Of a DNA stretch of 49,789 nucleotides, positions 1 to 49,789 are shown in pieces. A model generated the notes under the pieces. The model saw only the letters and a program-made list of their open reading frames with translations. It searched no databases and was not told where the DNA came from. Made by a program: the position numbers and the translations under genes. The first letter of the stretch is position 1; each line of letters begins with the position of its first letter. The DNA is from a virus, in the IMG/VR virus record IMGVR_UViG_3300017987_000024, positions 1-49,789 of that record. The stretch is one strand, 5' to 3'.

Positions 1-123
1 GCACTTTCACGGGTGCCGGATCAGCGGCTTCCCCCTACGGGTATACCCGCCCATTTAGTATCAGTTGAAAATCTGTATGGCCCCGGCAGGACTCGAACCT
101 GCAACGCTCAGATAGACAGATTA
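1..123. repeat. Terminal direct repeat, left copy (identical to 49667-49789)
   Basis: Base-by-base comparison: the first 123 nt equal the last 123 nt. The repeat starts at base 1 and ends at the last base. Confidence 0.95.
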
Positions 124-217
124 TTTATCCTGGAGGACCTATGGCCACTCGTGCCCTTACTAGCCAGTGTTTTCAAATCCGTCCGTCGGAGGCGTCTGCC
201 GATTCCGCCACGGGGCC
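78..217 (-). tRNA. Interrupted tRNA-like gene (140 nt) with 73 nt where the anticodon loop should be
   Basis: Minus-strand read: acceptor GGCCCCG/CGGGGCC plus discriminator A. D-arm TGGCGGAATCGGCAGACGC is Leu-like. Anticodon stem is TCCGA/TCTGA (4 of 5 pairs), variable loop GCGTT, T-arm GCAGG-TTCGAGT-CCTGC. A 13-bp closing inverted repeat joins 73-85 and 211-223. No canonical 7-nt anticodon loop was found. Confidence 0.5.
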
Positions 218-527
218 ATACAGAGGGTGAGCGGTTGAAAATGTGCGGCGGGCCGGGCGCTACTCCGGCGATGCGTTTTTATTGCATATGGCTCGCCGAT
301 TTCCACGGCCACCCGACAAGGGCTTTGGTCTATGGCCAACCAGTGCAGGCCACTCCTGCTCGCGGTGCGTGTCTGCTTTCCACGCCGCCGACGCACATAA
401 GGGTGATGGTCAAATAGTGAGGCCGGGCGTCCGTGCCCGACCCCTGAAACAGCCTTCGTGCATAACCCCCACAGTTGCGCACGAAAGTGAATTTAGGTTT
501 TGCTTTTCTGAGCCTCGGTTTGTACAC

Positions 528-573
528 TCGGTTTCCTAAACCGAAGGTTGCAGGTTCGAGTCCTGCCGGGCGT
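528..573 (+). other. tRNA-Arg(CCT)-like 3' fragment, candidate attP core
   Basis: TCGGT-TTCCTAA-ACCGA (anticodon CCT), variable loop AGGTT, T-arm GCAGG-TTCGAGT-CCTGC, then CGGGCGT-A. There is no matching 5' acceptor or D-arm upstream. It abuts the stop codon of the integrase gene. Confidence 0.6.
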
Positions 574-574
574 A

Positions 575-1621
575 TTAGAGGCCAATTTTATTGACCTCTT
601 GCCGCGCCGACCGGAAACACTCTTCGAGGTCGACGCCAATGTAATGGCGTCGTGTTGTTTCGGCGGATGCGTGTCTGAGGATGGTCCGAACCTCAACTTC
701 GGGCCGTCCTCTTTTTGCTAACCACGTCCCGAGGGACTTACGCAACTGGTGGTAATCGCCGTGCTCGATAAGCGTCGCGTTCGGATCGTCCAACCACCGC
801 TGACGATTCGTCGCCCGTAGAATCCGGTTGAACTCCCGGCTCCAGTTGTACACCGGGCAGTCCCGGATCTTTTCCGGCAACGGCCATGGTCGGCTCATCA
901 GATCGTCGAGCCGACACTTCATCAGGAACGGATATGGCCAGGGCCGCACTTGCTTGAGGCGGAACATCGTCTGCCATAGGCCGTCCGACATCGGGACCTC
1001 ACCTTCGTGCTTGCCCTTGCTCTGCCATTCCCAATACTCACCGGGCTTATCGTCGCGGTGGCGGACCAGGACACGACCGCCGTCGAGATCGACGTCTCGC
1101 CACCGGAGGTTCAGGACCTCGCCTTTGCGAAGGCCGCACACCGCCGCCAACTGAATGGCCGCATACCACGCCAGCGTCTTCGTCGGGTCGCGCCACGTCA
1201 ACGTGCCCGCCGTCGCCAGGATCTCCTTGGCCTCAGACTCGGTGTAATACCGAATCGCCTTGTCATCGACCTTGGCGGCATCAGCGTCGCAAAACGGATT
1301 GGCCCTCAGCCCGTACTCATTGCTGCCGTCGGCTTCTCGCTGGCGTATCGCCCAGCCAAATACCTGGGCGGCGGCACCGACGGTCGTCTTGATCGTCCAG
1401 GGCCTCAGACCGGGCCGTCTGGTCCGCGGATTGATTGCCCGTGTCGCCAGCCACGTCATCCACTTGTTGATACGCCCTGGCCCTAATTGGGCCACTGGTA
1501 CGTCACCCGCAAATGCGACGAGATGGCGAAAAGCACTGCGAGCCTTGGCCTTCGTGCAGCCCTTGACGCTTTGAAACATCTCATACTCTTGATACAGTTG
1601 TGATAGAGTCACGTCACTCAT
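575..1621 (-). CDS. int: Tyrosine integrase
   Basis: ORF 575..1690 trimmed to the ATG at 1621, which is preceded by AAGGAGG. Motifs: GLRKGEVLNLRWRDV (box I Arg) and LRHASAETTRRHY (H-x-x-R...Y). Confidence 0.9.
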   Translation of the reverse strand: MSDVTLSQLYQEYEMFQSVKGCTKAKARSAFRHLVAFAGDVPVAQLGPGRINKWMTWLATRAINPRTRRPGLRPWTIKTTVGAAAQVFGWAIRQREADGSNEYGLRANPFCDADAAKVDDKAIRYYTESEAKEILATAGTLTWRDPTKTLAWYAAIQLAAVCGLRKGEVLNLRWRDVDLDGGRVLVRHRDDKPGEYWEWQSKGKHEGEVPMSDGLWQTMFRLKQVRPWPYPFLMKCRLDDLMSRPWPLPEKIRDCPVYNWSREFNRILRATNRQRWLDDPNATLIEHGDYHQLRKSLGTWLAKRGRPEVEVRTILRHASAETTRRHYIGVDLEECFRSARQEVNKIGL

Positions 1622-1750
1622 GTCAGTCCTCCTTTCTTTCGACGCAACTGTGGGGTCTGACCCCACAGCGTAGCCGAAATCAGGGTTCACATCAAGTTCG
1701 GTGCTCTATCCTACTTCGCTATGGACTTGTCAAAGTGCGGGCCACCGGCC

Positions 1751-24591: not shown

Positions 24592-24887
24592 TACTGGGGT
24601 CCTCCATAACGAGCAATCAATTCGTTCGCTGTCTGCTGCTGCGTCGGCGTCAAGCCGCCCCTCGGAGTGCCGTCGACCGTGATATAGGGCCGCACCTCCG
24701 GGCACTCGAAGAACAGTTGGGCCAGTGGCGTCTCGGCGTCCATCGCCTCAGGCTCCGGCAGGGCCGCCACGTCAAGGGGCGGTTGCCCGGGGCCTTTGGC
24801 CTCCGCCTCTTTCCGCTCCTGCTCGCGCAGGTCCTCGACCTCCCAAGGCTCCAGCCACTTGCCGCGATACTTCACTTTGATACTCAT
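24591..24887 (-). CDS. Hypothetical head-module protein with TVDG..RGGL C-terminal domain
   Basis: The C-terminus ITVDGTPRGGLTPTQQQTANELIARYG is paralogous to the C-terminus of the upstream gene. Confidence 0.6.
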   Translation of the reverse strand: MSIKVKYRGKWLEPWEVEDLREQERKEAEAKGPGQPPLDVAALPEPEAMDAETPLAQLFFECPEVRPYITVDGTPRGGLTPTQQQTANELIARYGGPQ

Positions 24888-25258
24888 ACGCCGTACTTCG
24901 CCTTGATCTGGCGGGCCTGCTCAACCTGGGAAGGACGCAGTCCGCCACGCACCTGGCCGTCGACGGTCAAGACTTCCCGCATCTTGCCTTCATTGTCGTT
25001 CCACGCCTCGCGAAACGCCGCCTCTGGGTTCACGTCTTTCTTCGCCTCTTCGGCCTTCTTCGCCTCTTCGGCCTTCTTCGCCTCTTCGGCCGCCTTCGCC
25101 TCTTCGGCCTTCTTCGCCTCTTCGGCCGCCTTCGCCTCTTCGGCCGCCTTCGCCTCTTCGGCCGCCTTCGCCTCTTCGGCCTTCTTCGCCTCTTCGGCCG
25201 CCTTCGCCTCTTCGGCCGCCTTCGCCTCTTCGGCCGCCTTCTTACTCTGCTCTGCCAT
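24884..25258 (-). CDS. AEEAK-repeat protein with TVDG..RGGL C-terminal domain
   Basis: Eleven AEEAK(A/K) repeats are followed by LTVDGQVRGGLRPSQVEQARQIKAKYG. Confidence 0.7.
   Translation of the reverse strand: MAEQSKKAAEEAKAAEEAKAAEEAKKAEEAKAAEEAKAAEEAKAAEEAKKAEEAKAAEEAKKAEEAKKAEEAKKDVNPEAAFREAWNDNEGKMREVLTVDGQVRGGLRPSQVEQARQIKAKYGV
25040..25237. repeat. 18-bp tandem repeat, 11 copies, in-frame coding
   Basis: Units cttcgcctcttcggcc(tt/gc) counted directly. They encode AEEAK(K/A) on the minus strand. Confidence 0.9.
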
Positions 25259-25261
25259 CGG

Positions 25262-25513
25262 TCATTCTCCTGCGTTTAATGCCGCGTTAACAATCGCTTT
25301 CGCCACCGTCTTCCACAAGAGCCGCTGGCCCGTAGCCGTCGGTAGCATTCGTTTGATCTTCGTCAGGGCCGCGTTGTGCCTGGCCCGATCGTCGTCCGTT
25401 CTCAAGTCCGCCAGAACCCGCGCCACCTCATCTTCCAGAGCGTCGGGGTACGCCGCGTACATCTCGACCAGACGCGCTCGCGTGACAACCGGCTTTAGCT
25501 TCTCGTCCGTCAT
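25262..25513 (-). CDS. Hypothetical 83-aa protein
   Basis: Track ORF with ATGA overlap with the portal gene. Confidence 0.6.
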   Translation of the reverse strand: MTDEKLKPVVTRARLVEMYAAYPDALEDEVARVLADLRTDDDRARHNAALTKIKRMLPTATGQRLLWKTVAKAIVNAALNAGE

Positions 25514-30240: not shown

Positions 30241-31035
30241 TCAAGGGATTTCCCTGGCTTTGGTGAGTGTTTCCTGGAGGATGCTGGCGTTTGGCAGCAG
30301 TTCGGCCTCGATCTGGGCTCGTTTGGCCCGTCGTGCGGTCTGCTCTGGCGTTGGTGTTGGTGGCGTGTTGGTTGCGTGCTGATCACCCGGGAGTTTGAGC
30401 TTGTGCTGTTCGCGGATCCGGCGTCGCTGCTCGGGCGTGGCCTCTTGGATTGTGGGGGCCGATGAAGCCTGCCCTTGGGAAGGCTTTGGCGAATCGGCCC
30501 CTTTACTCTCAAGTTTTAATAAAGTTCTAATAGGTGGTTCCCCAGGACCACCCCCACAAGACTGGGGAACCGGGGTAGACGCGACTGGGGGACCACCCTC
30601 TTTTGGTTTTTCGGGGGTAGACGCGACTGGGGGACCACCTATATCATATCTAATAGGTGGTCCTGGGGAACCACCCTCTTTGTCCGGATCAATGAGGGCC
30701 TTTAGGACGCGGACTGTGTGTGGTTTGCCGCCCGTTTTGACCTGCTCCCAGTATCTATGCAGGTATTGTCTACGCGGGGGCAGACCCGCTTTGACTCGGG
30801 CCTTACTGCCCTGGCACAAGCCGACGATTATCTTGCGGACGTAGTCCGGGGTGAATTTGCAGTAATGGGCGATGGTTGCCGCCGAAGCGTAGCAGACCTT
30901 CGGCCAGAACCGATAAATCTGCTGGAGCACTACGGCCTCGGCGACCGATAGCAACGGGTCCAGCCATATCCAATCGTAGGCCCTGGCGTACTTGGTTTTA
31001 GTGCTGGGTTGTCGTTTGCGACCATCCGTGGCCAT
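30241..31035 (-). CDS. wHTH replication-initiator-like protein with Pro-rich repeat linker
   Basis: N-terminal LSVAEAVVLQQIYRF...ASAATIAHYCKFTPDYVRKIIVGL looks like a winged helix. A duplicated GGPPVASTP lies in the linker. Iteron-like DNA repeats lie inside the gene. Confidence 0.65.
   Translation of the reverse strand: MATDGRKRQPSTKTKYARAYDWIWLDPLLSVAEAVVLQQIYRFWPKVCYASAATIAHYCKFTPDYVRKIIVGLCQGSKARVKAGLPPRRQYLHRYWEQVKTGGKPHTVRVLKALIDPDKEGGSPGPPIRYDIGGPPVASTPEKPKEGGPPVASTPVPQSCGGGPGEPPIRTLLKLESKGADSPKPSQGQASSAPTIQEATPEQRRRIREQHKLKLPGDQHATNTPPTPTPEQTARRAKRAQIEAELLPNASILQETLTKAREIP
30526..30680. repeat. Iteron and inverted-repeat cluster (candidate origin)
   Basis: The 26-nt direct repeat ggggtagacgcgactgggggaccacc occurs at 30572-30597 and 30614-30639. 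A 20-nt inverted pair ggtggttccccaggaccacc (30533-30552) and ggtggtcctggggaaccacc (30656-30675) flanks them, each preceded by taatagg. AT-rich patches lie alongside. Confidence 0.6.
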
Positions 31036-33454: not shown

Positions 33455-33538
33455 CATGGTAATGGATCGAGAACGTAATCGCCCGCAAGGGCCATCCGAA
33501 ACTAACGTGACACAGTGTATTTTTTGGAGGTACGAGAA

Positions 33539-34177
33539 ATGAGACACCCAAGAATGATCGTAGCAATCGTGCTGTTGCTTGTGGTGACAGCGAACGCCCA
33601 ACTCAACCCGGTCCCGCGCGTCTCGCCCGGCCAATGGTCCGCCTGGGGACTGGTCGATATCGGCGAGATGGATCTGGATTTCGAGGCCCTGGGCGGCACG
33701 GAGATGGACTACACGCGCTGGCTCGCGGGCGTGGAACTCGGAGTCATCGACGGCGTGAGCCTGTTCGGCGGCGGCGGCATTATGGACATGGACATCTCGG
33801 ACTATTCCGACTCGCCCGGGACCTGGATCGTAGGCGTGCGGGGCGCGGTGGCCCTCAATGACGAATGGAGCCTGGGCGGTGTCGGGCAAGTCTCCGGCTG
33901 GAGCGCGACCGATACAGTTGACGTGGACGCCGTGGAAACGACGCTGGCGGCAGCGGTCCAGTGGTCGTCCGGGCCCTGGTCGGTTTACGGTGGTCCGTAC
34001 GTGCATTTGCTCGATGGCGAGTTGAGCTATCTCGGAATCGACCTGGACGTTGAAGGCGACGACGAGTTCGGCGGGTTCCTCGGCGCCGGTTACGAGATAG
34101 CCGACAGCGTCACCGTCAGTGCCGAGTACCGCTCGATCCAGCAAGGCGCGGTCGTCGGCGTAAGCTGGGCCTTTTAG
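33539..34177 (+). CDS. Outer-membrane beta-barrel protein (putative)
   Basis: The ATG at 33539 follows GGAGG. Signal peptide MRHPRMIVAIVLLLVVTANAQ. Alternating hydrophobic beta-strand pattern and a C-terminal VSWAF signature (terminal Phe). Confidence 0.7.
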   Translation: MRHPRMIVAIVLLLVVTANAQLNPVPRVSPGQWSAWGLVDIGEMDLDFEALGGTEMDYTRWLAGVELGVIDGVSLFGGGGIMDMDISDYSDSPGTWIVGVRGAVALNDEWSLGGVGQVSGWSATDTVDVDAVETTLAAAVQWSSGPWSVYGGPYVHLLDGELSYLGIDLDVEGDDEFGGFLGAGYEIADSVTVSAEYRSIQQGAVVGVSWAF

Positions 34178-34784: not shown

Positions 34785-35171
34785 ATGAGAATTGAACCAT
34801 GCAAGCCGCCCGTTGGCTATTACCACTACTCCAACCCCGCGTCTCAGGGGGCCTTGATGGCCAAGACGACCAAGTGGCCAAAAGGCCATCTTCCTGACGG
34901 ATGCGGAATCCTGGACGCATACACAGACCGAATGTGGGAATGGGATCAAGACAAGGCCAAGCGAGCCAGCGAAGCGCTGGGGGCACGATCCTTCAAGGAT
35001 GCCAGCGACGAGCAATTGCTGGCCTTCTCACGCGTCTGGTGGCCGGACTATGAGATTGTGGCCGTGCGCGTGGTGCATTATTACAACGTTGCGACGGGCT
35101 ACAGTTGCCCCCGCGTAGACGTCATCTACAAAGACGTCTCTCTCCCCGAGAATGGCGCCGACAATGGCTGA
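34785..35171 (+). CDS. Hypothetical 128-aa protein
   Basis: ORF 34662..35171 trimmed to the ATG at 34785 after GGGAGAA. Confidence 0.6.
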   Translation: MRIEPCKPPVGYYHYSNPASQGALMAKTTKWPKGHLPDGCGILDAYTDRMWEWDQDKAKRASEALGARSFKDASDEQLLAFSRVWWPDYEIVAVRVVHYYNVATGYSCPRVDVIYKDVSLPENGADNG

Positions 35172-35943
35172 CAAAACCGCCCTCAAAACGAACGAATGGC
35201 TACGGCAGCGCGAAGTCGACGAACTGCTGCGATACATCCGCAAGCGAACCAAGAGCGCCAAAGCCTCGCGCCGCAGTCACACGCGCCGACTGATTATCGA
35301 GATCGGGCTGTTCGCGGGCCTCAGAGCGTCCGAGATCCGCGGACTGAACATCAAGCACTTACCGCTAGCCAACGGCACGCTGGCCCTCCAGGTCATCGCC
35401 GGCAAAAGGAACAAGGACCGGCTGGTTCCGGTATCGAGGGAGCTGGCGCAACTGATCTGGCACTACGTGGTGGAGATCCGCCAGCTACTACCGCCTGTCC
35501 CCGAGGAAATCGAGCCCATTATCTGGCCGTATCTGGCCGAGGATGAGGACACCCTGGCCACACTCAGCAACCGGCAGGGGCGTCTGATCGGTGACTATCT
35601 GGCCTGCGTGCGCACCGCCGGGCCCAGCGTCGCAGACGCGCCCCTGCTGGTCTCGGAGATCGGCAACCGGATCGATCGCCATACGATATGGTCGTCCGTC
35701 ATGCTCACGGGCGTGGCGATCGGCTACGAGCGAGCGGTCGGTAAGCGCCCCGAGAACTCCGACCGCAACGCGCTCTATCCCCACCGCCTCCGCCACACGT
35801 GCGCCATGCGAATGGCGATAGCCGGTAAACACATCACCGAGATCCAGGGCTATCTCGGCCACTCCCAGATCGCGATGACCGCTCGCTACACGGCCACGTC
35901 TCAGCGCCACCTGTCGAAGACGGCGCAGGAGATGCACTGTTGA
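35152..35943 (+). CDS. Second tyrosine recombinase (XerC/D-like, 263 aa)
   Basis: FAGLRASEIRGLNIKHL (box I) and HRLRHTCAMRMA...GYLGHSQIAMTARYT (H-x-x-R...H...Y). An alternative start is at 35164. Confidence 0.85.
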   Translation: MAPTMADKTALKTNEWLRQREVDELLRYIRKRTKSAKASRRSHTRRLIIEIGLFAGLRASEIRGLNIKHLPLANGTLALQVIAGKRNKDRLVPVSRELAQLIWHYVVEIRQLLPPVPEEIEPIIWPYLAEDEDTLATLSNRQGRLIGDYLACVRTAGPSVADAPLLVSEIGNRIDRHTIWSSVMLTGVAIGYERAVGKRPENSDRNALYPHRLRHTCAMRMAIAGKHITEIQGYLGHSQIAMTARYTATSQRHLSKTAQEMHC

Positions 35944-45374: not shown

Positions 45375-46340
45375 CTATTCTGGGTTTCCGCACACGCCAA
45401 ACACCTTGTCTACGATCGTACACAGGTAGGGCATGGTCACATTGAAGTCCGGGTCTTCCCCTTGCCGCTTCCTGCAATAGTCGATGATCTCAATGAAATA
45501 GGCGGCATCGACCCCGGTCAACTGCTCCTGGAGAACGTCCACGTCGGCAAGGTTCAGTTCGCTAATCTGGAAACACATCTTCAGGAATTGCCCCGCATTG
45601 ATGTGCCATCCCCGCTTGAGGAACTTCCGCGTCCGAATGACCGAGCATAGCGGATATAGCGACCCGACGTAGAACAGTTCGCGGGCGACGATGCTCTCCA
45701 CTGCGGCTGGACGCAGGACGAGCTTATTGTCCCATGCCGTCCAGTAGTTGGTGCAGTGGACGAAGTCGTAGTTCTTGTGGACTTCTTCCGGCTCGCCATA
45801 GAAGCGAATCACCAGTTGCACCTTGTTGGACAGCGTGATCGCGTTGTCGGACAGGAACACGGGCCGGTATGCGGGCTTGTCGGAATCGTTGTCGTCCTCC
45901 TTGACCGTGACGTCCGATGCCGCCTCTGTCAGCCGCTCGACATAGCTTTGTCCTTCCCCTTCGGGGCGAGTCTCAAAATACTCATAGTTCGCGTCCGTCG
46001 CCTCCGACGTTATCCCGGCGCTCTGAATCCAAATCCGAATCCGGCCATCGTCCACGCCGTCCACGTTGGCCCCATCTACGACCTCTGGCTTGATATCGTG
46101 CTCTGGGTTGAGGCGATTGAATTCGGCCACGTAGTAGTTCGCCACCGCCTTGACGGTGGCCTTGTCGCGAAAGTAGTAGTCAAAGTCCTTGATCGGCTCA
46201 CCACAGAGCAAACTGACGATGGACCCGCCGGTAATCATGGCGTTCTCCTTCACCATCGCTCGCACGGCCGGATCGGTGATCGACGCGCAGAACTCCTTGT
46301 GCTTCTTTTCCAGTATCTTCTTGATAATGCGACGGTTCAT
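45375..46340 (-). CDS. Pol-beta-type nucleotidyltransferase-fold protein (321 aa)
   Basis: ITGGSIVSLLCGEPIKDFDYYF fits G[GS]-x(9-13)-DxD, and a later NYDFVHC offers a third acidic residue. Confidence 0.55.
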   Translation of the reverse strand: MNRRIIKKILEKKHKEFCASITDPAVRAMVKENAMITGGSIVSLLCGEPIKDFDYYFRDKATVKAVANYYVAEFNRLNPEHDIKPEVVDGANVDGVDDGRIRIWIQSAGITSEATDANYEYFETRPEGEGQSYVERLTEAASDVTVKEDDNDSDKPAYRPVFLSDNAITLSNKVQLVIRFYGEPEEVHKNYDFVHCTNYWTAWDNKLVLRPAAVESIVARELFYVGSLYPLCSVIRTRKFLKRGWHINAGQFLKMCFQISELNLADVDVLQEQLTGVDAAYFIEIIDYCRKRQGEDPDFNVTMPYLCTIVDKVFGVCGNPE

Positions 46341-48728: not shown

Positions 48729-48962
48729 TGTGTTTCTCCTGATTTGAGTGGTTATCATAAAAGTCAGGCCCTCCGTGGCCTTTCGCCCCAGCCACCTGGG
48801 CCGGGCATCCTCGGGGCACAACCCCTTGAAAGGAACAGCTATGAGTCTGGATTCTGGGAGTCTGAGGTTAAAAGGTGGGGCTGGGGCCGGGAGTGTAACA
48901 CGCACCTTCCGACCCCGCCCCATAAAGCCGCGCCCCGGCGTACCGTAAGGCGGATAGCGGAG

Positions 48963-49073
48963 GACCCCTATGGGATTTGAACCCGACGGCGAGACTGTCC
49001 TACCAGAACAGCGGCCGTCTACATGACTTCCAGCTTTCCAGGCTGGCGCTCTACCTGACTGAGCTAAGGGGCA
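48963..49073 (-). tRNA. tRNA-like gene, anticodon GGA, class-I body with a 38-nt hairpin insertion in the T-stem
   Basis: Minus strand: TGCCCCT-TA-GCTC-AGTCAGGTA-GAGC-G-CCAGC-CTGGAAA-GCTGG-AAGTC-ATG[38 nt]GG-TTCAAAT-CCCAT-AGGGGTC. The insertion (48984-49021) folds as GACGGC..CTGT-loop-ACAG..GCCGTC. Confidence 0.55.
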
Positions 49074-49618: not shown

Positions 49619-49666
49619 ATGATGGCTGATAAGAAAAATGGCGAGGGCGGGAACCCGCTACCGGTC

Positions 49667-49789
49667 GCACTTTCACGGGTGCCGGATCAGCGGCTTCCCC
49701 CTACGGGTATACCCGCCCATTTAGTATCAGTTGAAAATCTGTATGGCCCCGGCAGGACTCGAACCTGCAACGCTCAGATAGACAGATTA
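49667..49789. repeat. Terminal direct repeat, right copy
   Basis: Identical to 1-123. Confidence 0.95.

What the first reader, a model, noticed from the sequence alone, without database searches (positions are those of the whole stretch)
78..217. Second interrupted tRNA-like gene, with 73 nt where the 7-nt anticodon loop should be
On the minus strand these elements all sit at canonical spacing:
- a perfect 7-bp acceptor stem (GGCCCCG/CGGGGCC plus A73), extended to a 13-bp inverted repeat (73-85 with 211-223)
- a Leu-like D-arm (GGAATCGGCAGAC)
- a 4-of-5 anticodon stem (TCCGA/TCTGA)
- a 5-nt variable loop
- a perfect T-arm

The anticodon stem, however, encloses 73 nt (113-185). I tested every 5-bp stem with a 7-nt loop across that interior by hand and none was canonical.

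Together with the gene at 48963-49073, this phage carries two tRNA bodies that each hold a large insertion. That recurring theme argues against random decay.
Basis: seen in the sequence. Interest (0 to 1): 0.65.

Follow-up and report, generated by a model that had tools for sequence, protein, structure and literature searches.

The report
Non-decoding tRNA-Leu-shaped phage RNA gene
A temperate phage carries an intact gene for a tRNA-shaped RNA that keeps every part a leucine tRNA needs for processing and charging but has a private 73-base folded arm where the anticodon loop should be, and hundreds of uncultured phages carry genes built the same way.

Summary
Window 78-217 (minus strand) has a perfect 7-bp acceptor stem, a bacterial tRNA-Leu D-arm, a 4/5 anticodon-type stem, a 5-nt variable loop, a perfect T-arm and A73. 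The stem encloses 73 nt (113-185). Rfam's tRNA model scores it 34 bits, above its threshold of 29.

It is not an assembly chimera. An independent 49,685-nt contig runs straight through the window's 123-nt end overlap, with the element identical.

It is probably not an intron-containing decoding tRNA. No deletion or internal hairpin gives a loop with both U33 and R37. There is no group I core and no bulge-helix-bulge motif. No RNA ligase or splicing endonuclease was seen among about 40 phage ORFs scanned.

Pattern scans found at least 120 viral and 52 metagenomic loci with the same Leu frame and a 75-105-nt unrelated insert. Across 120 frames the acceptor and T stems covary strongly. U48, A73 and U(-1) are enriched or conserved. 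These are the E. coli LeuRS identity elements plus the RNase P preference.

Best reading (0.5): a stable, RNase P-processed, possibly leucylatable tRNA mimic carrying a phage-specific arm. Its function is unknown.

Closest precedents: the "enigmatic introns" of Lak megaphage tRNAs, T4 species 1/2 RNAs, and tmRNA topology.

The parts
78..217 (-). tRNA-like gene, 140 nt: a class-II (Leu-type) tRNA frame with a 73-nt insertion in place of the anticodon loop
   Evidence: Rfam tRNA 34 bits, E 2.8e-5. ARAGORN -i makes this its sole call. Identical in an independent contig.
211..217 (-). Acceptor stem, 5' strand: GGCCCCG
   Evidence: Pairs 7/7 with 79-85. In the family all 7 acceptor pairs show compensatory changes.
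192..208 (-). D-arm GCGGAATCGGCAGACGC, bacterial tRNA-Leu type: 3-bp stem, with A14, A15, G18G19 and A20a in the loop
   Evidence: Read from the sequence. LeuRS identity elements are listed in PMC9976931.
186..190 (-). 5' strand of the anticodon-type stem: TCCGA
   Evidence: 4/5 pairs with 108-112. The stem continues inward as a long irregular helix.
113..185 (-). Private 73-nt insert. Predicted fold: about 16 further base pairs with 1x1 internal loops, ending in two small hairpins.
   Evidence: Folds. No Rfam family at E<=10. No similarity to any other insert or locus fetched. No complementarity of 12 nt or more elsewhere in the phage.
108..112 (-). 3' strand of the anticodon-type stem: TCTGA
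103..107 (-). 5-nt variable loop GCGTT. Its last base (window 103) is U48, the partner of A15 in the Levitt pair.
   Evidence: Read from the sequence. Position 48 is T in 115 of 117 family members.
86..102 (-). T-arm: GCAGG TTCGAGT CCTGC
   Evidence: The three free T-stem pairs covary in the family.
78..85 (-). Acceptor stem 3' strand CGGGGCC (85-79) plus discriminator A73 (78). No CCA is encoded.
   Evidence: Read from the sequence. A73 is present in 63/74 viral and 27/39 metagenomic family members.
218..224 (-). 5' leader, 7 nt, pairing with A73 plus the 3' trailer (72-78). This extends the acceptor helix to 14 bp. U is at position -1.
   Evidence: Only 3 of 117 family members have an extension of 6 bp or more. 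U(-1) occurs in 79/117 against a 26% T background.
49632..49658 (-). Terminator-like hairpin followed by a T-run, about 86 nt downstream of the element on the circular map
512..582 (+). 3' two-thirds of a tRNA-Arg(CCT): anticodon arm, variable loop, T-arm and acceptor 3' strand. This is the phage attachment site (attP).
   Evidence: Rfam tRNA 27.7 bits. 97.7% match to a tRNA-Arg. Integrase homologues abut complete tRNA-Arg(CCT) genes in L123 and L125.
575..1690 (-). Tyrosine integrase. It lies upstream of attP and the tRNA-like gene on the same strand.
   Evidence: PF00589 6e-18 and phrog_1. Homologues.
48962..49073 (-). Second odd tRNA-like gene: type-I D-arm, anticodon loop CUGGAAA, about 40-nt insertion in the variable region
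   Evidence: Rfam tRNA 37.2 bits. Fold.
1..123 (.). Exact 123-nt terminal overlap (equal to 49667-49789) of a circular assembly. Its boundary falls inside the insert.
   Evidence: D2. An independent contig is colinear across it.

Best explanation
Window 78-217 (minus strand) is an intact gene for a roughly 140-nt tRNA-shaped RNA that cannot read a codon.

What it keeps and what it replaces. It keeps the complete upper body of a bacterial class-II tRNA-Leu:
- a 7-bp acceptor stem and U8;
- a Leu-type D-arm with A14, A15, G18G19 and A20a;
- U48, the T-arm and A73.
The anticodon loop is replaced by a private 73-nt folded extension of the anticodon stem.

Family. It belongs to a large, essentially uncharacterised population of phage genes, plus some bacterial ones. 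These combine a constant, covarying tRNA-Leu frame with a hypervariable 60-120-nt insert.

Proposed mechanism:
1. It is transcribed on the minus strand downstream of int and attP, or from its own promoter, ending at the hairpin and T-run about 90 nt beyond it. (Inferred.)
2. RNase P cuts the 5' end after U(-1). The 3' end is trimmed and CCA is added. The result is a stable L-shaped RNA. (Inferred from family-wide conservation.)
3. Bacterial LeuRS reads only A73, the A15:U48 pair, G18G19/A20a and the D/T-loop contacts, and tolerates loss of the anticodon and variable arms. The RNA is therefore probably leucylatable. (Inferred. All sequence determinants are shown to be present.)
4. It acts as a non-decoding tRNA mimic. 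It could be a decoy or adaptor for a tRNA-binding host factor, such as an acceptor-end- or tRNA-body-directed defence toxin. It could instead be a carrier that stabilises and presents the phage-specific arm. (Speculative.)

Shown here: the anatomy, the assembly's integrity, the existence of the family, selection on its structure, and the lack of a decodable loop.
For: Anatomy and significance.

Not a chimera. An independent JGI contig (49,685 nt) is colinear across the window junction, with 2 mismatches in 6,732 nt, both inside the integrase. The element is identical. A neighbouring 149-aa protein is found unchanged on 10 contigs.

Family size. A narrower pattern that also fixed the T-arm as GCAGGTTCGAGTCCTGCC found 52 metagenomic loci.

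Family structure, in unfiltered unique matches:
- The acceptor stem is 7/7 paired in 68/87 viral and 37/41 metagenomic matches, with 50 and 33 different acceptor sequences.
- On 120 frames, 96.2% of cells are paired, against 72% when shuffled and about 38% when slid. The covariation score is 0.623 against 0.144, reached by 0 of 500 shuffles.
- All 7 acceptor pairs and the 3 free T-stem pairs show compensatory changes.

Conserved tertiary and processing positions:
- Position 48 is T in 115/117.
- A73 is present in 85% of viral and 69% of metagenomic members.
- Position -1 is T in 68%, against a 26% background.
- Positions 74-76 read C-N-A in 66/117.

LeuRS. The retained positions are those listed for E. 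coli LeuRS. tRNA-Leu variants lacking the anticodon and variable arms are still charged (PMC9976931).

Relatives:
- L295 has the same acceptor stem, a D-arm differing by 1 nt and the same T-arm, but an unrelated insert. It lies about 2.3 kb upstream of an exonuclease only 26% identical to the window's. The frame is therefore conserved far beyond the proteins.
- L290, L289 and L276 each carry two tandem insert-bearing frames with the same or near-identical (1-nt different) acceptor stems and different inserts.

No decodable loop.
Against: - There are no expression data of any kind.
- The unconstrained minimum-energy fold of the 140-mer is a rod (-57.4 kcal/mol) rather than the cloverleaf (-51.4 when constrained).
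- The insert alone folds no better than shuffles (z = -1.8). It has no homologue, so its structure is untested.
- This copy lacks the family's C74/A76 signature (its 74-76 is UAC).
- This copy has an unusual 14-bp leader-trailer helix that could impede RNase P.
- The frame relatives L295, L290 and L291 have U73, which should abolish leucylation. Charging therefore cannot be the conserved function of every member.
- No recurrent partner protein was found; the largest neighbour cluster covers 6 of 125 loci.
- The D-arm and T-loop were fixed by the search pattern. Their invariance is not evidence, and the family may be heterogeneous. A few members (L036, L048, L050, L104) do look like real intron-bearing tRNA-Leu genes.
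Confidence: 0.5

Rival explanations
1. Intron-containing tRNA gene. The 66-73-nt insert is excised by an unknown bacterial or phage pathway and the exons are ligated, giving a decoding tRNA. ARAGORN's solution is tRNA-Asp(GUC) with loop CUGUCUA.
For: - The spacing is canonical: 1 nt after the D-stem, a 5-bp stem and a 5-nt variable loop.
- CUGUC matches the first five loop bases of bacterial tRNA-Asp (own knowledge).
- Conserved exons with an unconstrained insert is the pattern expected of an intron.
- Lak megaphage tRNAs carry comparable 'enigmatic introns' (PMC6784885).
- Some family members (L036, L048, L050, L104) do give Leu anticodons plus a Leu-type variable arm.
Against: - The spliced loop would have U37. 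The stem has a C.U mismatch. The body has a class-II Leu D-arm with A73, whereas tRNA-Asp has G73 and a type-I body.
- No group I core or any ribozyme is found at E<=10.
- There is no bulge-helix-bulge motif.
- No RNA ligase, RtcB or splicing endonuclease was seen among about 40 ORFs scanned.
- Family-wide forced anticodons are random: Leu in 12/105, with many unnatural anticodons such as AAA, AAU and ACC.
Confidence: 0.15
2. Cis-acting processing or retroregulatory element for the integrase transcript, a positional analogue of lambda sib/tI. The element lies beyond attP, downstream of int. An endonuclease cut at the tRNA-like fold, or at its 14-bp leader-trailer helix, would expose int mRNA to 3' decay. 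Integration would separate the element from int.
For: - The order int (1690-575), attP (512-582), element (217-78), terminator-like hairpin (49658-49641) is all on one transcriptional strand.
- The same order, int then attP then odd tRNA-like gene(s), is seen in relatives L124 and L421.
- The whole element can also fold as a long imperfect duplex, with z = -4.7.
- The 14-bp leader-trailer helix is unusual in the family, found in 3 of 117.
Against: - Most family members are solitary or sit in tRNA arrays.
- No integrase homologue was found near other family members, although this was a weak tblastn test.
- A plain hairpin would serve this purpose. It does not explain retention of the full Leu identity set, U48 and the D/T elbow.
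- No promoter or terminator mapping exists.
- This reading is not exclusive of the main explanation.
Confidence: 0.12
3. Decaying pseudogene or recombination scar. On this reading it is a former tRNA gene disrupted by an insertion. Alternatively it is a hybrid of a tRNA-Leu 5' half with a tRNA-Arg-like 3' half made by integrase errors. Either way it is now neutral.
For: - 24 nt of the 3' half (82-105) are identical, in inverted orientation, to the attP tRNA-Arg fragment at 547-570 (I5).
- In bacterial genomes many pattern hits are a tRNA-Leu plus a partial duplicate left at att sites.
- L421's element contains a nested T-arm, suggestive of tRNA-tRNA recombination.
Against: - The acceptor stem is perfect, and all tertiary-contact bases are intact.
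- A hybrid of two different tRNAs would not have complementary ends.
- The T-arm GCAGGTTCGAGTCCTGC also occurs in other viral-scan frames whose T-stem was not fixed by the pattern (e.g. L006, L025, L030, L032, L052). The 24-nt match is therefore not diagnostic.
- L295 keeps the same frame while neighbouring proteins have diverged to 26% identity.
- Covariation across 120 frames shows purifying selection.
- There is no internal T-arm or acceptor remnant in this insert.
Confidence: 0.08
4. Assembly artefact. On this reading 78-123 and 124-217 come from different molecules joined at the 123-nt terminal repeat.
For: The repeat boundary (123/124) falls inside the insert.
Against: - The window itself is contiguous over 1-217.
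- An independently linearised contig (Ga0180432_10000841) carries the element in its interior, 100% identical.
Confidence: 0.01

Closest known systems
'Enigmatic introns' in tRNA genes of Lak megaphages (Devoto et al. 2019, PMC6784885; preprint 10.1101/356790)
   Same: [quoted passage not shown] They carry short (tens of nt) insertions that are not group I introns, and no splicing mechanism is known. Some of those inserts contain tRNA-like pieces, as in L421 and several family members here.
   Different: The Lak cases were read as decoding tRNAs (Phe, Gly, Thr, Tyr) in genomes over 500 kb with tRNA arrays, and their inserts are conserved between cohorts. Here the host genome is a 50-kb temperate podovirus. 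The frame is Leu-type, no decodable loop can be restored, and the insert is private.
Group I introns in bacterial tRNA anticodon loops (e.g. cyanobacterial tRNA-Leu(UAA))
   Same: An insertion in the anticodon loop of a Leu-type tRNA gene in a bacterial or phage setting.
   Different: Group I introns are 200 nt or longer, with a conserved catalytic core. The insert here is 73 nt, and Rfam reports no Intron_gpI or other ribozyme hit at E<=10.
Archaeal/eukaryal protein-spliced tRNA introns (bulge-helix-bulge, position 37/38)
   Same: A short insertion that extends the anticodon stem into a longer helix.
   Different: The predicted helix has 1x1 internal loops, with no pair of 3-nt bulges separated by 4 bp. 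The insertion point would be 31/32-32/33, not 37/38. The relatives' hosts are bacterial: a bacterial-type tRNA-Arg with MlaD and RHS neighbours. No EndA-like gene was seen.
tmRNA (SsrA)
   Same: Same topology: a tRNA-like acceptor/T-arm body whose anticodon arm is replaced by a long helix leading to a non-tRNA domain. It is charged by a synthetase that ignores the anticodon.
   Different: tmRNA has G3:U70 (Ala identity), no D-stem, pseudoknots and a tag ORF, and is 230 nt or longer. This element has C3-G70, an intact Leu D-arm, 140 nt and no convincing tag ORF. ARAGORN calls no tmRNA.
Phage T4 species 1 and 2 RNAs (rnaC, rnaD)
   Same: They are small stable phage RNAs of 139 and 119 nt of unknown function, encoded next to tRNA genes. 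rnaC (the one inspected) has a T-arm (CCGGGTTCGAATCCCGG) and a partly paired acceptor-like end.
   Different: rnaC has no Leu-type D-arm, and its acceptor pairing is imperfect (5/7). There is no sequence relationship.
YrlA / bacterial Y RNA-like RNAs
   Same: A non-coding RNA built from a tRNA-mimicking module plus a long helix. It is processed by tRNA enzymes.
   Different: YrlA is circularly permuted relative to this element: its ends lie in the long Ro-binding stem (own knowledge). There is no YrlA hit in window 1-700 at E<=10, and no Rsr/Ro gene was seen.
Lambda sib/tI retroregulator
   Same: The position matches: a structured RNA element beyond attP, downstream of int on the same strand, followed by a terminator. 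Integration would separate it from int.
   Different: sib is a plain RNase III hairpin with no tRNA features. The retroregulatory role here is only a positional inference.

Membership tests
Canonical decoding (elongator) tRNA | 7-bp acceptor stem, D-arm and T-arm at standard spacing | tested here: met
   (Rfam tRNA 34 bits against a gathering score of 29).
Canonical decoding (elongator) tRNA | 5-bp anticodon stem closing a 7-nt loop with U33, a 3-nt anticodon and a purine at 37 | tested here: not met
   The stem encloses 73 nt. No contiguous or spliceable loop has both U33 and R37. Default ARAGORN makes no call.
Canonical decoding (elongator) tRNA | Body type consistent with the anticodon (class II D-arm accompanied by a long variable arm) | tested here: not met
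   A Leu-type D-arm is combined with a 5-nt variable loop. ARAGORN's forced anticodon is Asp GUC, with A73.
Group I intron-containing tRNA gene | Group I catalytic core (P3-P9) within the insert, typically 200 nt or longer | tested here: not met
   The insert is 73 nt. No Intron_gpI or any ribozyme hit at E<=10 on either strand of 1-700.
Archaeal-type BHB intron-containing tRNA | Bulge-helix-bulge motif (3-nt bulge, 4-bp helix, 3-nt bulge) at the exon-intron junctions | tested here: not met
   The predicted helix has single-nucleotide 1x1 internal loops only.
Archaeal-type BHB intron-containing tRNA | A splicing endonuclease and ligase available in the host or phage | tested here: inconclusive
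   No RtcB, RNA ligase or EndA domain among about 40 window ORFs scanned with Pfam or PHROGs. The host genome is not available.
tmRNA | G3:U70 alanine identity pair, tag-peptide ORF, pseudoknots | tested here: not met
   The 3:70 pair is C-G. ARAGORN's tmRNA search is negative. Rfam reports no tmRNA hit.
Substrate set of bacterial (E. coli-type) LeuRS | Discriminator A73 | tested here: met
   Window 78 is A. A73 is present in 63/74 and 27/39 family members. The requirement is from PMC9976931.
Substrate set of bacterial (E. coli-type) LeuRS | A15:U48 Levitt pair, G18G19 and A20a in the D-loop, U8:A14, and T-loop U54, U55, C56 and A58 for the D/T tertiary contacts | tested here: met
   All are present in the sequence: D-loop GAAUCGGCAGA, U48 at window 103, T-loop UUCGAGU. 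U48 is present in 115/117 family members.
Substrate set of bacterial (E. coli-type) LeuRS | Actual aminoacylation with leucine after CCA addition | not testable with these tools
   This needs an in vitro charging assay. CCA is not encoded; positions 74-76 read UAC.
Operational family defined here: phage Leu-frame tRNA-like genes with a hypervariable central insert | Leu-type D-arm and GGTTCGANTCC T-loop separated by 60-125 nt instead of about 40 | tested here: met
   The gap is 92 nt. At least 120 viral and 52 metagenomic loci share this layout.
Operational family defined here: phage Leu-frame tRNA-like genes with a hypervariable central insert | Perfect 7-bp acceptor stem, paired T-stem, U48, U(-1), usually A73 | tested here: met
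   The window has 7/7 acceptor pairs, 5/5 T-stem pairs, U48, U(-1) and A73.
Operational family defined here: phage Leu-frame tRNA-like genes with a hypervariable central insert | Insert unrelated between members, with no consistent anticodon | tested here: met
   No similarity of the window insert to 3.4 Mb of fetched loci. Forced anticodons are random.
Operational family defined here: phage Leu-frame tRNA-like genes with a hypervariable central insert | C74-N75-A76 partial CCA after the discriminator (66/117 members) | tested here: not met
   The window has UAC at 74-76 and instead a 7-bp leader-trailer extension.

The most novel reading that the evidence does not exclude
Phages, and some bacteria, widely encode a class of non-decoding RNAs built on a tRNA-Leu frame. 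The frame preserves exactly what RNase P, the CCA-adding enzyme and LeuRS need. The anticodon and variable arms, which LeuRS ignores, have become a fast-evolving, phage-specific cargo domain.

Such RNAs would be leucine-chargeable tRNA mimics. They might be used as decoys for tRNA-directed defence toxins or as adaptors. This would be a natural counterpart of the engineered 'tRNA scaffold' and a Leu-specific analogue of the tmRNA design.

The window's element, placed at the att-proximal start of the early, anti-defence gene block, would be one of them.
Probability: 0.35. Interest if true: 0.8.

Novelty: new variant of a known kind. Interest (0 to 1): 0.62.

Why it matters
Oversized phage "tRNAs" are normally missed by tRNA finders, annotated as pseudo-tRNAs or called enigmatic introns.

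This analysis shows that a large set of them share a covarying tRNA-Leu frame. The frame retains precisely the determinants for 5' processing and leucylation while discarding the decoding parts.

That turns a curiosity into a testable hypothesis: a widespread family of chargeable, non-decoding tRNA mimics in phages. It also gives a simple sequence rule for finding them.

If the hypothesis is confirmed, three things would follow:
- a new class would be added to phage non-coding RNAs;
- tRNA-targeting defence and counter-defence would be informed;
- natural, evolution-tested tRNA scaffolds for RNA display would become available.

For this phage, the analysis also settles three points. The locus is not an assembly artefact. 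attP lies in a tRNA-Arg(CCU) fragment. The two odd tRNA-like genes sit between attP and the early recombination and anti-defence genes.

Tried and rejected
- An exact 30-nt search of the insert in IMG/VR gave 0 hits. A frame-specific pattern (ATCGGCAGAC D-arm plus this T-arm) in IMG/VR also gave 0 hits.
- Close relatives sought through the integrase and the exonuclease in IMG/VR gave none.
- BLAST of the window's first 1.2 kb and of a family member against 50,697 deposited phage genomes matched only ordinary tRNA T-arms. No isolate phage carried both halves of a frame.
- K-mer enrichment in 74 non-redundant inserts showed only weak, AT-driven motifs (TTGAAA 15/74, AGTAAG 9/74). No shared insert motif emerged in the Leu-type set.
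- Complementarity of the insert to the rest of the phage gave nothing of 12 nt or more.
- Similarity of the insert to all fetched loci gave nothing.
- The 9-nt direct repeat GTTGAAAAT flanking the element (64-72, 234-242) was tested as a target-site duplication. It is not adjacent on the right side and not beyond chance.
- A conserved neighbouring protein was sought. The largest cluster covers 6 of 125 loci. No integrase homologue was found near other members.
- A sigma-70 promoter upstream of the element was not found on the relevant side.
- A tmRNA-like tag reading (GCA CGA GUG GCC AUA GGU CCU CCA GGA UAA) was considered and dropped. It has no LAA-type end and no pseudoknots, and ARAGORN is negative.
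- The archaeal-virus idea, prompted by a hit to 'Virus Rctr197k', was dropped. The relatives' hosts are bacterial.
- Literature searches for a described mechanism or family found only the Lak megaphage report.
Full report
**1. What the window is.**
The 49,789-nt window has an exact 123-nt direct repeat at its ends (1-123 equals 49667-49789). It is therefore a circular assembly of 49,666 nt.

It encodes:
- a T7-type portal (PF12236), a tail-tube B protein (phrog_376) and a major head protein;
- a P22-gp3-like small terminase, RusA, two DNA methyltransferases, and an exonuclease VIII/DUF3799 plus ERF recombination pair;
- a tyrosine integrase at 575-1690 on the minus strand.

Abutting the integrase stop, on the plus strand, lie the 3' two-thirds of a tRNA-Arg(CCU) at 512-582 (Rfam 27.7 bits; 97.7% match to a tRNA-Arg). 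Integrase homologues of 52-69% identity sit directly against complete tRNA-Arg(CCU) genes in a bacterial genome contig (L123) and a metagenome contig (L125). The fragment is therefore attP, and the phage is a temperate podovirus of a Gram-negative host.

**2. The observation.**
On the minus strand, 217-78 reads:

GGCCCCG UG GCGGAAUCGGCAGACGC C UCCGA [73 nt] UCUGA GCGUU GCAGG UUCGAGU CCUGC CGGGGCC A

- The flanking inverted repeat is 14 bp (72-85 with 211-224), one more than stated.
- Default ARAGORN calls no tRNA. With introns allowed it makes a single call in the whole window, and it is this element.
- Rfam's tRNA model gives 34.0 bits (gathering score 29, E = 2.8e-5) with a 77-nt local insertion.
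- The D-arm is that of bacterial tRNA-Leu. Ordinary tRNA-Leu genes recovered carry GUGGCGGAAUUGGYAGACGC.
No internal hairpin and no simple deletion yields a 7-nt loop with both U33 and a purine at 37.

**3. Not an assembly chimera.**

- An independently linearised JGI contig (Ga0180432_10000841, 49,685 nt) covers the junction without a break. 6,732 nt align to the circularised window with two mismatches, both inside the integrase. The 140-nt element is identical and lies in the interior of that contig.
- A neighbouring 149-aa protein is found unchanged on ten contigs.

**4. Not a spliced decoding tRNA, on present evidence.**
- ARAGORN's solution is tRNA-Asp(GUC) with a 66-nt intron between positions 31/32 or 32/33. 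It requires loop CUGUCUA (U37), a C.U mismatch in the stem, A73, and a class-II Leu D-arm joined to a 5-nt variable loop. That combination is not that of any canonical tRNA.
- No group I intron, ribozyme or riboswitch family matches either strand of 1-700 at E<=10.
- The predicted helix continuing from the anticodon stem has 1x1 internal loops, not a bulge-helix-bulge.
- No RNA ligase, RtcB or splicing endonuclease was seen among about 40 ORFs scanned.

**5. The element belongs to a large family.**
I scanned IMG/VR for a Leu-type D-arm and a T-loop separated by 75-105 nt; the normal tRNA-Leu gap is about 40 nt. The scan stopped at its 120-locus limit. A narrower metagenome scan, with the T-arm fixed to this element's, gave 52 loci.

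- In unfiltered unique matches the seven bases before the D-arm pair perfectly with the seven after the T-arm in 68/87 viral and 37/41 metagenomic cases. These use 50 and 33 different acceptor sequences.
- On 120 unfiltered frames, 96.2% of cells are paired, against 72% shuffled and about 38% slid. The covariation score is 0.623 against 0.144, reached by 0 of 500 shuffles. All seven acceptor pairs and the three free T-stem pairs show compensatory changes.
- The inserts share no sequence. They are predicted to fold as one long arm or two hairpins.
- When forced into an intron model, they give anticodons scattered over all isotypes. Leu is called in 12 of 105, about the chance rate.
- Most copies are solitary: 76 of 105 have no other tRNA within 1.5 kb. 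They have no recurrent neighbouring protein.

It found about 45 frames with good acceptor pairing, many in tRNA arrays and many sharing an internal 'hairpin + ACAGCAAU' motif. Insert-bearing tRNA-like genes are therefore a general phage phenomenon with several sub-types.

In bacterial genomes the same Leu pattern is common. However, many hits there are a tRNA-Leu plus a partial duplicate at an att site. Genuine insert-type genes occur in cyanobacterial arrays, Bacteroidota and CPR bacteria.

**6. What is conserved is what tRNA enzymes need.**
The search pattern did not constrain the following positions:
- Position 48 is U in 115/117 members.
- The discriminator is A in 85% of viral and 69% of metagenomic members.
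- Position -1 is U in 68%, against a 26% T background.
- Positions 74-76 read C-N-A in 66/117.

U(-1) is the base preferred by bacterial RNase P (own knowledge).

The review PMC9976931 states that E. coli LeuRS depends on A73, the A15:U48 pair, G18G19, A20a and the D/T-loop tertiary pairs. [quoted passage not shown]

The window's element carries every one of these determinants. It has lost only the dispensable parts.

**7. Close relatives of this copy.**
- L295 has the identical acceptor stem (GGCCCCG/CGGGGCC), a D-arm differing at one base and the same T-arm, but a wholly unrelated 81-nt insert. It lies about 2.3 kb upstream of a homologue of the window's exonuclease that is only 26% identical. 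In the window the exonuclease likewise starts about 2.4 kb downstream of the element. The frame is thus conserved far beyond the surrounding proteins.
- L290, L289 and L276 each carry two tandem insert-bearing frames with the same or near-identical (1-nt different) acceptor stems and different inserts, and no canonical tRNA.
- The syntenic relatives L421 and L124 also have odd tRNA-like genes between int/attP and the early genes.
- The window's own second odd tRNA (48962-49073) fits this pattern.

**8. Position.**
The order on the minus strand is:

int, attP, element, terminator-like hairpin (49658-49641), second odd tRNA, small ORFs, exonuclease, a Gad2-annotated ORF (PF26128, precomputed hit), ERF.

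- In the circular form the element lies in the 3' region of int, the position of lambda sib.
- After integration it would lie at the att-proximal start of the early block.

**9. Interpretation.**
The best-supported reading is a functional, non-decoding tRNA-Leu mimic.
- Shown: the anatomy, the assembly's integrity, the existence of the family, selection on its structure, and the absence of a decodable loop.
- Inferred: transcription, RNase P and CCA maturation, and leucylation.
- Speculative: the biological role. It could be a decoy or adaptor for a tRNA-binding factor, or a carrier for the private arm.

Caveats:
- There are no expression data.
- The unconstrained fold prefers a rod.
- The insert's structure is unsupported by covariation.
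- This copy lacks the C74/A76 signature and has an unusual 14-bp leader-trailer helix.
- Frame relatives with U73 cannot all be leucylated.

Rivals, in order: a spliced intron-bearing tRNA, a sib-like cis element for int, a neutral relic, and an assembly artefact (excluded).

**10. Comparison with what is known.**
- The nearest published description is the 'enigmatic introns' of Lak megaphage tRNAs (PMC6784885). Its authors noted no earlier report, and my literature searches found no later explanation.
- T4 species 1 and 2 RNAs are old examples of tRNA-like stable phage RNAs of similar size and unknown function.
- tmRNA shares the topology and the use of an anticodon-blind synthetase, but none of its defining features is present.

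I file the element as a new variant of a known but unexplained kind. The family-level result appears not to have been described: a Leu frame, the retained LeuRS/RNase P determinant set, and a hypervariable insert.

Noticed in passing
window 48962-49073 (-): Second odd tRNA-like gene. Rfam tRNA scores it 37.2 bits. It has a type-I D-arm, anticodon loop CUGGAAA (GGA) and about 40 nt inserted in the variable region, forming a long extra arm.
   Followed up: partly
window 512-582 (+) and 575-1690 (-): attP is the 3' two-thirds of a tRNA-Arg(CCU), overlapping the integrase stop. Homologous integrases abut complete tRNA-Arg(CCU) genes (L123, L125). A 24-nt stretch (547-570) is an exact inverted copy of the tRNA-like gene's T-arm region (82-105).
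   Followed up: yes
window 45375-46340 (-): This ORF carries a precomputed Pfam PF26128 (Gad2, anti-Gabija) hit in the JGI copy of the phage. My own Pfam scan did not report it, but phrog_4400 matched. It lies between the exonuclease VIII/DUF3799 and ERF genes, about 3.4 kb downstream of the tRNA-like genes.
   Followed up: no
window 24981-25268: Eleven tandem copies of an 18-nt unit (65-88% identical to the reference copy), lying largely within ORF 24884-25258 on the minus strand (D1). This implies a hexapeptide-repeat protein between the portal and head genes.
   Followed up: no
window 30526-30676: A 26-nt exact direct repeat (30572-30597, 30614-30639) is bracketed by a 20-nt perfect inverted repeat (30533-30552, 30656-30675). 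It sits next to the gp3-like small-terminase ORF. It looks like an operator or packaging control region (D11, D12, I16).
   Followed up: no
window 35152-35943 (+) and 33515-34177 (+): A second tyrosine recombinase (PF00589, 4e-24) and an outer-membrane beta-barrel ORF lie on the opposite strand, in the middle of the genome.
   Followed up: no
window 892 and 912: These are the only two differences from the independent JGI contig over 6.7 kb, and both lie in the integrase. In that contig the integrase is called as two genes (243 + 101 aa), so one assembly carries an interrupted integrase.
   Followed up: partly
L139, L143, L171, L172, L185, L203, L204 and others (IMG/VR); L401 (genome contig): Insert-bearing tRNA-like genes, mostly with type-I D-arms (L401 has a Leu-type D-arm), share a conserved internal motif: a short hairpin followed by (U/A)ACAGCAAU. 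Those examined with Rfam (L139, L143, L171, L172, L185, L204) lie in tRNA arrays, several of them with more than one copy. Rfam recognises only the tRNA part.
   Followed up: partly
L321 (Prochloron), L342 (Nostoc), L361 (Trichormus), L405: Cyanobacterial chromosomes carry conserved Leu-frame genes with inserts of about 45-60 nt containing GGGUUAUC-like motifs. L321 carries four elongated tRNA-like genes of 120-136 nt within about 1.3 kb, and L342 two adjacent ones.
   Followed up: no
L317 1880-2005: A Leu-frame tRNA-like sequence with an insertion lies inside the 23S rRNA gene of a Saccharibacteria MAG.
   Followed up: no
L299, L304, L318 and about 15 other Flavobacteriia loci: A truncated 5' half of tRNA-Leu(CAA), ending just past the anticodon loop, is followed 25-30 nt later by a complete tRNA-Leu(CAA). 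This is a conserved partial 5' duplication.
   Followed up: no
L421 2063-2134 and 2369-2491: A syntenic relative (int, attP, early genes) has two odd tRNA-like genes. One has an abnormal anticodon loop. The other has a 5-bp stem (CUCCG/CGGAG) enclosing about 55 nt that contain a nested T-arm-like hairpin.
   Followed up: partly
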